64,000 bases of DNA, from assembly GCA_951406725.2 (NCBI GenBank), contig OX597841.1:13454001-13518000 (forward strand), given 5' to 3'. Both the position numbers and the translations under genes were made by a program. Shown piece by piece: positions 50,401-61,879 of this stretch (within the stretch, counting starts at the first letter, position 1; every line of letters begins with the position of its first letter). The notes under the pieces were generated by a model, which saw only the letters and a list, made by a program, of their open reading frames with translations, searched no databases and was not told the origin of the DNA. The DNA is from Octopus vulgaris (taxonomy: Eukaryota).

Positions 50401-53400
50401 TTTCTCTCGCTCTCTCTCTCCTTTCTCTTGCTCTCACTTTCTCTCTCTTTCCCTCCTGTCTCTCTCTCTCCCTCCTGTCTCCCATTTTTCTCTCCCTTTC
50501 TTGTCTCCCTCTCCTTGTCTCTCTCTCTTTCCTATCACTCTCTCTCATGTCTCGTCCTCTCTCCTGTCTCTTCCTCTCTCCTGTCTCTTCCTCTCTCCTG
50601 TCTCTTCCTCTCTCCTTTCTCTTCCTCTCTCCTTTCTCTTCATCTCTCCTTTCTCTTCATCTCTCCTTTATCTTCCTCTCTCTCCTTTATCTTCCTCTCT
50701 CCCGTCTCTTCCTCTCTCCCGTCTCTTCCTCTCTCCCGTCTCTTCCTCTCTCCTGTCTCTTCCTCTCTCCTGTCTCTTCCTCTCTCCTGTCTCTTCCTCT
50801 CTCCTTTATCTTCCTCTCTCCCGTCTCTTCCTCTCTCCTTTCTCTCCCCCTCTCCTGTCTCTCCCTCTCGCTTATCTCTCTCTTGTCTCTCTCTCTCTCT
50901 AAACATCTGTCTGTTTGTCATTGCAGGTAGCCAAAAGTGTGTCCAACGCCTTAAACAATTGCCTGAACTGTTTGCCTGGTCAAAGAGATGTTGATAATGC
51001 CATCCGAGGCATCACAGAGTCCAGCCAGGCTCTTTCAACCTCACAGGTCAGTTGTCTACACCACCACCACCATCTTCTTTTTTTTCAACTAATAGTTGCT
51101 TTTATTAGATGCGTCTTACAAGGTTTTTACCGGTCATAACTTTCATTGACCTAACATACGATATCTAAGGGTTTCTCAACCAGATTTTATCTATGGGGTC
51201 CCTTTGGTTACAGTTTTATTCTGGTGGACCCTAAAGCCATTCGATGACTAAAAACCAGTCACATTAACTTGAGTAGGTTGAACTCTGTAAAATGTTAAAG
51301 AAAGAAACCCAGCTGTTTCTTGCCATACATACCAATACATACATCTAAAACAGGGATCCTCAACCCTTTCTTATCCATGGAACCCTTTGATTTCTATTTC
51401 AATCTGGTGGACCCCCTAACTGGTTTTATAGATTCTTCCTTTAAAATTCCTGTTTTGCCCTTCACACATTAACCCCTGTAGGTTGAACTATGCAAAACAT
51501 GGTTCTCAACCATTTTTTTTATCAACGGACCCTTTGATTATTATTTTTTCCTGGTGGACCCCCAAAACCATATGATGTTTAAAAACTAGTTTTATAGAAA
51601 CTTCTTTCAAAATCCCTATTTCGTTTTTCCCAGATTTGTGTTGGAGAAAGAAACCCAGCTGTTTCTTGCAATACATACCAATACATCTAAAACAGGGGTC
51701 CTCAACCCTTTCTTATCCATGGAACCCTTTAATTACTATTTTAATCTGGTGGACCATAATACCCATTTGATGTTTAAAAACCAGTTTTTGAGAAACTTCT
51801 TTCAAAATTCCTAATTGTGTTACTGTTTCCCATCCCTCTAACCATCTACGTTTTGTCCGTTCTTCTTCAGATCCCAGAGACCAACAGATCATACCAGGAG
51901 GCCCAGGGCGAAATGAACCAAGCGGCCGTGAATTTGAACCAAGCAGCCAGCGACATAGTGACCACGTCGCGCGGCACTCCACAGCAGCTTGCCTCCTCGT
52001 CCAACCGTTATGGACACGCCTACAAGGACTTTGTGGACAGCGGTCTAGTTATGGCTGGCGTCACGAAGGACAGTGACACCCAAATGCAGATAATCGGAGG
52101 ACTGAAAAGTGTGTCCACAGTGTCCAGCAAGTTACTTGTCGTGGCTAAGTCTGTGTCAGCAGACCCCAACGCGCCAAACGCGAAGAACCTACTTGCACAA
52201 GCTGCCAGGGCAGTAACTGACAGCATTAACCAACTCATAAACATTTGTACCGTATCAGCACCAGGACAAAAGGAATGCGATAATGCTTTGCGGCAAATCC
52301 AGATGATGCGTAGCCTGCTCGAAGTTCCCAACGAACCAGTCAGCGACCACTCGTACTACGAGTGTCTGGAGTCAGTCATGCAGATATCAAGGGTTTATAT
52401 ACTTTATTTATATACATATTTATGTTATATATATAAAAATGTCATCCATGTATATATATACCATGTATCCTTGAGTATAATCCACATTATTTCCCCAAAA
52501 TTTTAAGGTCAAAATCCCTAGTACGTATTATACACGAGGTTAAAAATGAAAATTATTTTCTCAGCAATGTCTGAGTCGCTATTTGCTGTCTGGCAATGTT
52601 TATTCAGACGCATTTTGTGATGTTGGGTGCGAAAATACCTTCAGCTAAGCCTGAAAGCAATGAATTCATAAAAGAATCATCCATAACTTGCAGTAAGCAA
52701 CATTTATTAAAATAAAAGTACTCAGAACACAGAATAACATGTAACAAAAACAATTTGCAAACATATTTACATTCCCATATAACAGTTAAGAACATCACCA
52801 TTATTGTATTACGCATGCACGGAAGTGTTTGTTTGACTAGGTGCTGCTGGCTTAATTACACATGACTCAAGTTAGAGAAGGGGTGCATATTATACACAAG
52901 GTTTAGGTTTTTCAGAAGTACAGCCCCCTAAAAATCCCCTGCGTATTATACTCAAGGGTGGACTGTACTCGAGGATTTATGGTATATATATATATATATA
53001 TATTGTGTGTCTGTCTGTTTGTCCTGTCTCTGTATGTACATATTGTCTTGTGTATATCATCGTCCGCTCATCATCAGCTTACTCTCCTCTGATCGGCTAT
53101 TTGCTCCAGCTGGTCGGCTTTATCTGCTTTGGCTATTTCTTACAATCTATGCTTTGTCTTTAATCTCTCTTGCTAATCTCTCTTTCACTAATCCCTTTCC
53201 TTTTCACTCACTAATCTCTCTTCCTCTCGCTCTCTTGCTAATCTCTCTCTCTCTCTCTTGCTAATCTCTCTCTCTTGCTAATCTCTCTCTCTTGCTAATC
53301 TCTCTCTCTTGCTAATCTCTCACTCTTGCTAATCTCTCTCTCTTGCTAATCTCTCTCTCTTGCTAATCTCTCTCTCTTGCTAATCTCTCTCTCTTGCTAA

Positions 53401-54624
53401 TCTCTCTCTCTCGCTAATCTCTCTCTCTCTCGCTAATCTCTCTCTCTCTCGCTAATCTCTCTCTCTCTCACTAATCTCTCTCTCTCTCTCTCACTAATCT
53501 CTCTCTCTCTCACTAATCTCTCTCTCTCTCTCTTGCACTAATCTCTTTCTTTCTTGCTCAGTCTCCCAAATTCTCCCTCTTTCTCTCTTGCTAATCTCTC
53601 CTCCTCTCTTTCCTGCTAATATATATCTGTGTCCTTAATCACTCTCTTCCTAATCCCACTTGCTAATCTTTCTCACTAATCTCTCTATCTTCACTAAAAA
53701 CACTTGGCTTTTGTGGTTGACAGCAGTGAGGGGCCTGTTTTGTACCAACTTCAGCTGGTTGATAGTGAGAGCCATGTCCGGAATGTAAGAAGATTCTTAT
53801 TGTTTCCATTACCTTTAAAGGTTTTCATTTTAAGCTTAAGAATTTGGACAGTTTTTCCCTTTGTTAACATTTTTTCCAGCTGGAACGCCATTTTTTCATC
53901 CTAAGTCTACTGGATCAGGGATTACCTGGGGTTAAACAAAAATATTCATCATATAATGTAGTCCTAGATATACTGTGCCTGAATAAAAAAACGCAATGAT
54001 CATGGCTGGAACACCCTTGATTATATAGGTCAGTTGTATCAGTACTGACCCGGGGTTTAACAACAGCAGCAAAGGACACATTAGATAAAGTAGTCCTAGA
54101 TATACTATGCCTGAATAAAGACGGGATGGCCACAGCTGGAACACTTTTGATCGTCATAGGTCTACTGTATCAAATACGACCCAGGGCTAAATAACCACCG
54201 TGACCACCATCCCGACAACCACACTTTCCTAACAGTTAAAAGCTAACCGTCCGCCGCGCTAAATTTCAATCCTGCTTCCTGCCTACTATCTTGAACTTTA
54301 ACCTTTGACCCTAAACTCTAACCTTTGACCCTGACCTCCAACCCTTAACCTCGAAGCTTTACCTGCTGTGTTCGCGCTCTCATTATTTCTCTTCTGTTTC
54401 CCTGTACAGACTGTCTCCACTAAGGAACTCCAGGTAAGTCCCTGTAAGGTGATCACTAATTCTACATACATATATCTACATATGTATGTATATATATTTA
54501 CGTATGTAAATGCACTTGTGTGTATAGGAATGGGTTTTTCTTTTTTTTTCTCATTTTCAACATTATCGATTTTGTTTCTTTTATCTAAATTATCTGTACT
54601 GGTTTGTTTATTATTTTTTTTAAT

Positions 54625-58300: not shown

Positions 58301-59162
58301 ACTGTTTACTTTTCTGGGATGTTCTTCTCTCTCCGTTCTTTGGTTCTGTGATTCTTCAAATCTATGATTCTTTCATTCTATGATTTTGCTCGTTCCCTGA
58401 TTCTTTCATTCTGTAATTTCTTTCCCCCCCCCCCCCAAAAAAAAAAGCAAAGCATGAAACAGTTAGTGTGTGTTTGTGATTACCCTGGTCTAGTGATCAT
58501 GTGATGGTTGTGATCATAAAACAGCCAAAATGTAGGGAAATCAAGATGGAGATTTTCAAATCTAATATAAACAGCATGCATTTGTATACATTTTGACTTT
58601 TGGATCACTCTCTCTCTCTCTCTCCATATATATATATATATATATATATATTACACACACACACTCATACTCGTACACACACATGAAGGTGCTGAAAGGT
58701 TCCTGGTTTTAAGGGTATCACAAATGGCCTGGTTGGAGGCCCAAGTTCTTGGGTTCTTTTACAGGGCTTAGAAAAACTGAAGGACCACTGCAATAAGTGT
58801 GTGAATCTGAGAAGGGAATATGTTGAATAGAATCATAATTAACTGACCTCCTGTTTTTTTCTTTTACCCAAAGCCAGGAACCTTTCACCAACCCCTTTTA
58901 TGTATGTGTATGTGTATTCTTTACTATATTCCCTTATTCCTCGTCTCATCTCTGTTTCTCTCTCTCGCATCCAATCTGCAGTCTCTTGGCGATGCCATGA
59001 CAGGAATATCAAACGATGCCAAGAAAGCTGACACGGATGGGTTCTGCGAGGCCGTCAGAAACTTCTCCTCATCCATTAATGGCCTGACTGAAGCAGCTGC
59101 TCAGGTAAGAAAGAAGTCTTAGGATTCGCTTCATTTATTCGTAACCATGATTATATGCATAC

Positions 59163-61849: not shown

Positions 61850-61879
61850 TATTACGCTTCCTGGAACAGCCGTGCCATG
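61850..61879 (+). CDS. Candidate 30-nt in-frame talin microexon (YYASWNSRAM), R8
   Basis: ctctaac...ttcttaattcttctcttaag|TAT TAC GCT TCC TGG AAC AGC CGT GCC ATG|gtaaga; phase 0-0, no stop. Confidence 0.6.

What the first reader, a model, noticed from the sequence alone, without database searches (positions are those of the whole stretch)
54410..54433. 24-nt microexon (TVSTKELQ) inserting two residues before the G1404-equivalent of the KANK site
Seen: an AG-free pyrimidine tract of about 50 nt, cag| acceptor, a perfect CAG|gtaagt donor, branch-like CTAAC/CTGAC/TTAAC at about 54316-54349, and ACTAAT about 20 nt downstream, all in unique sequence. Inclusion gives [21 protein letters not shown], against vertebrate SVMENSK-VLGEAM. 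By my alignment that Gly is talin-1 G1404, whose G1404L mutation abolishes KANK binding. Inference: an 8-residue insert inside this helix would shift its register and change KANK binding or R7 mechanical stability.
Basis: partly seen in the sequence, partly recalled or inferred. Interest (0 to 1): 0.72.

Follow-up and report, generated by a model that had tools for sequence, protein, structure and literature searches.

The report
Mollusc talin microexon in KANK helix
An octopus gene for the force-bearing adhesion protein talin has an optional 24-base exon, already in public gene models, that is predicted to break the helix forming talin's docking groove for KANK; limpet, abalone, oyster and scallop talins carry their own optional inserts at the same spot, so this likely is a recurring splice switch whose effect is untested.

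Summary
The exon is real. 54410-54433 is a phase-0, 24-nt exon (TVSTKELQ) with the best donor in the gene. It ranks first of 38 mini-exon candidates in 44 kb of intron. The peptide is in 4 of 9 named Octopus vulgaris talin isoform models and absent from 5, so it is annotated and optional. The junction is talin-1 K1401|V1402, mid-helix 2 of R7, beside S1400 and G1404.

New here: eight other mollusc species (limpet, two abalones, Gigantopelta, three oysters, one scallop) have 2-9-residue inserts at exactly this junction. Where several models exist they are mostly optional, and the insert is identical across three oyster species. None was seen in the non-molluscs sampled. The genome has a KANK gene with a KN motif, and the groove residues are kept.

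An effect on KANK binding or R7 stability is inferred, not shown. Tissue of inclusion is unknown, and no junction reads were obtained. Closest precedent: human TLN1 exon 17b.

The parts
51871..52392 (+). Upstream constitutive talin exon (R6 and start of R7), ends SVMQISR; last codon = talin-1 K1401, phase 0
52393..52398 (+). Upstream donor, the weakest of the gene's 30 scored donors (leave-one-out -3.9)
53161..53700 (+). CT-rich tandem tract with 25 CTAAT (7 ACTAAT), none on the opposite strand; role unknown
54294..54349 (+). Branch-like motifs (CTAAC -92, CTGAC -79, TTAAC -65), mostly within a 20-nt x 2.5 tandem repeat
54357..54409 (+). Pyrimidine tract (51 nt without AG) and CAG acceptor
54410..54433 (+). 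Optional 24-nt microexon, TVSTKELQ, phase 0-0
54434..54439 (+). Consensus donor GTAAGT, highest-scoring in the gene
54455..54460 (+). ACTAAT, a QKI/How-type site (motif meaning recalled, not tested)
58982..59104 (+). Downstream constitutive exon, starts SLGDAM (G = talin-1 G1404); weak acceptor, 4th lowest of 30

Best explanation
This is an optional 24-nt exon of octopus talin that inserts eight residues between the equivalents of talin-1 K1401 and V1402, in the middle of R7 helix 2, where it is predicted to break the helix and loop out beside the KANK groove, likely weakening KANK docking and making R7 easier to pull open. Shown: the exon and its splice sites, its presence in some isoform models and absence from others, the position in the helix, short inserts at the same junction in eight other mollusc species, and a KANK gene with a KN motif in this genome. 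Predicted: the helix break without a register shift. Inferred: that what is selected is the break itself rather than the insert's sequence (lengths 2-9, little likeness between classes), that inclusion is tissue-regulated, and that it tunes the talin-KANK-microtubule link and R7-R8 mechanics.
For: Annotation: 4 of 9 named O. vulgaris models include it and 5 skip it. The genome paper's pipeline used Iso-Seq, RNA-seq and PASA (passages); that these protein records come from that pipeline is inferred. Recurrence: 37 of 486 talins covering the junction have a 2-9 aa insert there. These are Patella vulgata 9 of 12 models, Haliotis rufescens 7 of 12, H. cracherodii 1 of 1, Gigantopelta 1 of 1, Ostrea edulis 8 of 15, Crassostrea virginica 2 of 14, one C. 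gigas record, Pecten maximus 4 of 6 and O. vulgaris 4 of 9. The oyster insert GQVW is identical in three species and neither begins with a GT codon nor ends in AG, so at a phase-0 intron it cannot be a shifted splice site. The limpet and abalone inserts resemble each other (p=0.003 against shuffles, uncorrected over 10 pairs). Structure: the control model has one helix at 35-61; the insert model has helices 35-46 and 56-69 with 48-54 under pLDDT 50. S1400, K1401, G1404 and S1411 on this helix shape the KANK pocket, and G1404L abolishes binding (PMC4995097 passages). Groove residues are kept or conservatively changed in octopus, and the KN motif is present. Precedent: TLN1 exon 17b lowers R1R2 unfolding force (PMC9997659 sections 10 and 15).
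Against: The crystal-structure paper lists hydrogen-bond contacts on helix 9 (S1637, R1638, K1645, T1649, R1652), so a looped-out insert might leave docking intact. AlphaFold2 tends to loop out residues that the alignment lacks (own knowledge), and only 5 of the 39 aligned relatives had an insert. The octopus peptide shows no clear likeness to the other inserts (p=0.055-0.65). The five other cephalopod or cephalopod-like sequences seen (P0166, P0242, P0159, P0262, P0264) are skip forms, so conservation of this exon in cephalopods is not shown. No insert appeared in the listed models of Biomphalaria, Physella, Pomacea, Babylonia, Mytilus, Ruditapes, Mya, Mizuhopecten or Ylistrum. The newer C. 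virginica models lack it (0 of 12). Octopus has Tyr at W1630. My searches found no paper testing talin-KANK binding in a mollusc.
Confidence: 0.5

Rival explanations
1. The exon is real but mainly a mechanical or stability switch: it lowers the R7 unfolding force and exposes R8 or vinculin sites, while KANK still docks on helix 9 and the flanking half-helices.
For: Named hydrogen-bond contacts lie on helix 9. The predicted bundle is otherwise intact (mean pLDDT 90.2 against 90.6; TM 0.80 to 6twn). R7 stability protects R8 (citing Yao 2016). TLN1 exon 17b works this way.
Against: The break falls exactly between S1400 and G1404, which form the pocket, and one bulky side chain there abolishes binding. 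In 5 of 6 insert types a large hydrophobic residue sits two places before the downstream exon, where Ser is kept in 39 of 40 aligned talins.
Confidence: 0.2
2. The exon is a low-level, nearly neutral exonization: a weak upstream donor lets cryptic mini-exons be used now and then, and different molluscs hit on different ones in the same intron.
For: The upstream donor is the weakest in the gene and the downstream acceptor is 4th lowest of 30. Insert lengths and sequences differ among classes, and many mollusc model sets lack any insert. Isoform models do not give inclusion levels.
Against: All 37 short inserts keep the frame and have no stop, though protein records select for this. GQVW is identical in three oyster species of two genera, and limpet and abalone inserts are alike. 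Optional inserts cluster at only 3-4 positions of a 2,550-residue protein in the five species sets examined, which were chosen for having this insert. The exon's own sites are far above background.
Confidence: 0.17
3. The insert is read into the helix and shifts its register or displaces the upstream half, for example putting Leu at the S1400 position and filling the KANK pocket as G1404L does.
For: L, L, L, M or V falls at the 1400-equivalent in 5 of 6 insert types. Seven or eight residues are about two helical turns.
Against: AlphaFold2 gives no helix across the insert. The inserts score negatively against the helix profile in the C-terminal register in 5 of 6 cases, the two-residue scallop insert excepted. 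Limpet and abalone inserts contain Gly, and the abalone one Pro.
Confidence: 0.08
4. The loop adds a new binding or phosphorylation site (Thr/Ser-rich TVSTK) instead of disabling one.
For: The insert is predicted exposed and disordered. The same idea was raised for exon 17b.
Against: There is no shared motif across classes, and lengths go down to two residues.
Confidence: 0.05

Closest known systems
Human TLN1 cassette exon 17b (Gallego-Paez et al. 2023, PMC9997659; outline and sections 10 and 15 read)
   Same: An optional in-frame exon inserted inside a talin rod helix, modelled as mostly unstructured, giving two talin isoforms.
   Different: 17b is 51 nt at Q665, near the start of R2 helix 1, and extends a linker. 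This one is 24 nt in the middle of R7 helix 2 at a ligand groove, and recurs across molluscs. 17b's mechanical effect is measured; this one's is not.
Talin-1 R7 KANK site and the G1404L mutant (PMC4995097 and bioRxiv 2023.02.23.529676, passages read; PDB 8AS9, 8IVZ)
   Same: Same helix and pocket; Y1389, S1400, G1404, S1411, S1637, S1641 and K1645 are kept in octopus, and a KN-motif partner is in the genome.
   Different: G1404L is an engineered substitution that fills the pocket; this is a natural insertion predicted to break the helix. W1630 is Tyr and R1652 is Lys in octopus.
eMIC/SRRM-dependent neural microexons (PMC8797185, two passages read)
   Same: Short, frame-preserving, with a CUAAY branch-like site and a UCUC-containing pyrimidine tract.
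   Different: No UGC within 40 nt of the acceptor, an unexceptional AG-free zone, and a strong own donor with a weak upstream donor, the reverse of the fly pattern.
Mouse Tln2 alternative coding exons 43 and 54b (PMC2702505, passages read)
   Same: Tissue-variable splicing of talin rod exons.
   Different: They lie in other parts of the rod; the passages seen describe nothing at the R7 helix 2 junction.

Membership tests
Alternatively spliced microexon | Length 3-27 nt (definition recalled) with canonical AG/GT sites | tested here: met
   24 nt, CAG| and |GTAAGT; top of 38 candidates
Alternatively spliced microexon | Frame-preserving, no stop | tested here: met
   Phase 0-0, TVSTKELQ
Alternatively spliced microexon | Both inclusion and skipping isoforms on record | tested here: met
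   4 include and 5 skip among 9 named O. vulgaris models; these are gene models, not reads
Alternatively spliced microexon | Junction-spanning reads and inclusion level | tested here: inconclusive
   See Tried and rejected
eMIC/SRRM-dependent neural microexon | UGC close to the 3' splice site | tested here: not met
   None within 40 nt; nearest at -46 (feature)
eMIC/SRRM-dependent neural microexon | Long AG exclusion zone | tested here: inconclusive
   51 nt, but 21 of 29 constitutive acceptors equal or exceed it
eMIC/SRRM-dependent neural microexon | Strong CUAAY branch point | tested here: met
   CTAAC at -92, though an AG lies between it and the acceptor; use of this branch point not shown
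eMIC/SRRM-dependent neural microexon | Neural-specific, eMIC-dependent inclusion | not testable with these tools
   Needs tissue RNA-seq or a minigene
Talin R7 KANK-binding site | R7-R8 fold with helix 2 carrying S1400 and G1404 | tested here: met
   PDB sequence hits; models; Foldseek TM 0.80 to 6twn
Talin R7 KANK-binding site | Groove residues conserved | tested here: met
   numbered through a vertebrate talin-2 with an assumed offset of 2; W1630 is Tyr
Talin R7 KANK-binding site | KN-motif partner present in the organism | tested here: met
   PF12075 at 51.9 bits, G000:C7, motif IDLDF
Talin R7 KANK-binding site | Measured KN binding, and its change with the insert | not testable with these tools
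   Needs a fluorescence polarisation or NMR assay

The most novel reading that the evidence does not exclude
Molluscs carry an ancient splice switch, older than the split of cephalopods, gastropods and bivalves, that snaps talin's KANK-binding helix with an insert of almost any sequence. It is a natural, reversible counterpart of the G1404L mutant that uncouples adhesions from microtubule capture in chosen tissues.
Probability: 0.25. Interest if true: 0.75.

Novelty: new member of a known kind. Interest (0 to 1): 0.5.

Why it matters
The talin-KANK link ties integrin adhesions to cortical microtubule capture, and the literature I could search shows no splicing control of it. A natural insert in the middle of that helix, used in three mollusc classes, would show that this link or R7's mechanical threshold is tuned by splicing. 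It would also give talin biophysicists a ready series of natural variants of 2-9 residues. If inclusion is rare and without effect, it is an ordinary annotated microexon.

Tried and rejected
RNA check: no RNA holder listed. 19 of 24 runs hold the upstream exon, all as contigs and none on record as RNA. The downstream exon laid on 4 of those 19 runs gave 0 contigs, which the tool says can be a filter effect. This is no evidence either way, and junction use is left open.

Complex prediction of insert-bearing R7R8 with the octopus KN peptide: no answer (score 0.01, mark 0.34; alignment not used, partner fold uncertain). It is not used as evidence.

First homologue search was capped at 2000 aa and missed full-length talins; 0 of 118 alignable hits had an insert. 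A search of shorter proteins with the insert region gave 6 hits, none with this peptide; one (P0510) is a read-through intron at the same phase-0 position.

Literature: 'talin'+'microexon' 4 papers, none relevant by listing; 'microexons'+'octopus' 1 preprint, with no mention of talin in its main text (its supplements are closed and may list the exon); 'talin R7'+'splicing'+'KANK1' 0; 'talin'+'splice'+'mollusc'+'isoform' 7, none relevant by listing; one search was uninformative. The QKI paper was not held, so the ACUAAY reading is recalled.

Earlier findings of this scan: nothing on this exon.

Rejected: the AG-free tract as special evidence; the register shift as main model; eMIC membership.

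Full report
Setting. The window holds part of a talin gene on the + strand. Thirty-two exons between 11965 and 61879 match named Octopus vulgaris talin models letter for letter. The upstream exon matches talin-1 residues 1229-1400, so its last codon is K1401 and the next exon begins V1402-L1403-G1404.

Observation. The exon is at 54410-54433 as described. With weight matrices from the gene's own 30 other exons it ranks first of 38 mini-exon candidates in 43,962 intron bases: 23.9 against 15.8 for the next and 17.5 for the best of 52 reverse-strand controls. Its donor is the best in the gene, the upstream donor the worst (-3.9), and the downstream acceptor fourth lowest of 30. The AG-free tract is ordinary for this gene, matched or exceeded by 21 of 29 acceptors. 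Two of the branch-like motifs lie in a small tandem repeat.

It is already annotated and optional. The exact peptide sits at this junction in 4 of 9 named O. vulgaris models (CAI9742941.1, 942.1, 943.1, 945.1) and is missing from 5. The genome paper's annotation used Iso-Seq, RNA-seq and PASA (PMC10700109, passages). I infer, but did not check, that these records come from it. They may rest on the same or a very similar assembly, so they are independent only through their transcript evidence.

The slot recurs across molluscs. Of 515 proteins fetched, 486 cover the junction, 28 do not and 1 has a deletion there. Of the 486, 37 carry a short insert exactly there, 1 carries a read-through intron that begins with Val and ends with Gln (a phase-0 intron at the same place), and 448 have nothing. 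The inserts are: octopus 8 aa; Patella vulgata 9 aa (9 of 12 models); Haliotis rufescens 7 aa (7 of 12) and H. cracherodii (1 of 1); Gigantopelta aegis 8 aa (1 of 1); the same GQVW in Ostrea edulis (8 of 15), Crassostrea virginica (2 of 14) and one C. gigas record; and Pecten maximus 2 aa (4 of 6). Limpet and abalone inserts are alike (p=0.003, uncorrected); the octopus insert is not clearly like any (p=0.055-0.65). So common origin and repeated gain both remain open.

Limits of that survey. None was seen in the listed models of Biomphalaria, Physella, Pomacea, Babylonia, Mytilus, Ruditapes, Mya, Mizuhopecten, Ylistrum, Lineus, Lingula, Owenia, Ptychodera, Styela, the arthropods or vertebrate talin-2. 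At most 15 members per cluster were listed (one cluster has 66), vertebrate talin-1 isoforms were not examined, and I could not see the genomic DNA of the other molluscs. That their inserts are exons is inferred. It is firmest for GQVW, which cannot be a shifted donor or acceptor at a phase-0 intron; the two-residue scallop insert could be a tandem acceptor. The five other cephalopod or cephalopod-like sequences seen are skip forms.

Structure. AlphaFold2 on the skip form (part of P0242, five substitutions from the window's protein in this region) gives one helix over residues 35-61, with the junction at its middle. On the inclusion form (part of P0238) it gives helices 35-46 and 56-69, the insert as a loop with pLDDT under 50, and the rest unchanged (TM 0.80 to 6twn). 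The same native residues stay helical, which points to a looped-out insert and not a register shift, though this is a known tendency of the method. The octopus insert fits the helix profile in neither register. One pattern cuts the other way: 5 of 6 insert types put a large hydrophobic residue at the 1400-equivalent, where 39 of 40 aligned talins have Ser.

KANK. Bouchet et al. place S1400, G1404, S1411 and K1401 of this helix at the KANK groove and show that G1404L abolishes binding (PMC4995097, passages). The crystal-structure preprint puts the KN strand between helices 2 and 9 and names hydrogen-bonding side chains on helix 9 (passages). Octopus keeps Y1389, S1400, G1404, S1411, S1637, S1641 and K1645, with conservative changes at 1401, 1630, 1638, 1649 and 1652. 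Its genome encodes a KN motif, IDLDF. The premise is therefore reasonable, but binding and its change were not measured.

Regulation. Fly eMIC exons have UGC near the acceptor, weak own donors and strong upstream donors (PMC8797185, passages). This exon lacks UGC within 40 nt and has the reverse donor pattern. Eleven of the 13 sense-strand ACTAAY sites in the 30 introns scanned lie in the host intron, seven of them in one repeat tract and one at +22. From memory, such sites downstream favour QKI/How-driven inclusion in muscle. That is a lead only.

Verdict. A real, already annotated optional microexon (about 0.93). The most likely mechanism is a helix break at the KANK groove that weakens docking and R7 stability (0.5). 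It works like TLN1 exon 17b (PMC9997659, sections 10 and 15) but at a ligand site. The recurrence across three mollusc classes was not found in print in my searches. New member of a known kind; interest 0.5.

Noticed in passing
window 61850-61879: A second optional exon (30 nt, YYASWNSRAM) in the R8 region, in 7 of 9 named O. vulgaris models. Similar peptides occur at the same place in Biomphalaria, Physella, Pomacea, Patella, Gigantopelta, a chiton, scallops and oysters, often with a further optional mini-exon. It is more conserved in sequence than the exon studied.
   Followed up: partly
window 53161-53700: CT-rich tandem tract with 25 CTAAT on the sense strand and none on the other; runs of three or more such units were found nowhere else in the window. 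It could be a branch-point decoy or a STAR-protein array.
   Followed up: partly
window 53755-53784: A weaker in-frame 30-nt mini-exon candidate in the same intron (acceptor 1.7, donor 7.6), in single-match sequence, absent from all nine O. vulgaris models.
   Followed up: partly
proteins P0237, P0319, P0359, P0428, P0349 (outside the window): In five mollusc isoform sets, optional inserts cluster at only 3-4 positions of talin (about residues 1410, 1499, 2298, 2382), suggesting shared splicing hotspots.
   Followed up: partly
L002 (G000:C7:26499877-26502972): The KANK KN motif lies in a single 1,783-codon open frame.
   Followed up: no
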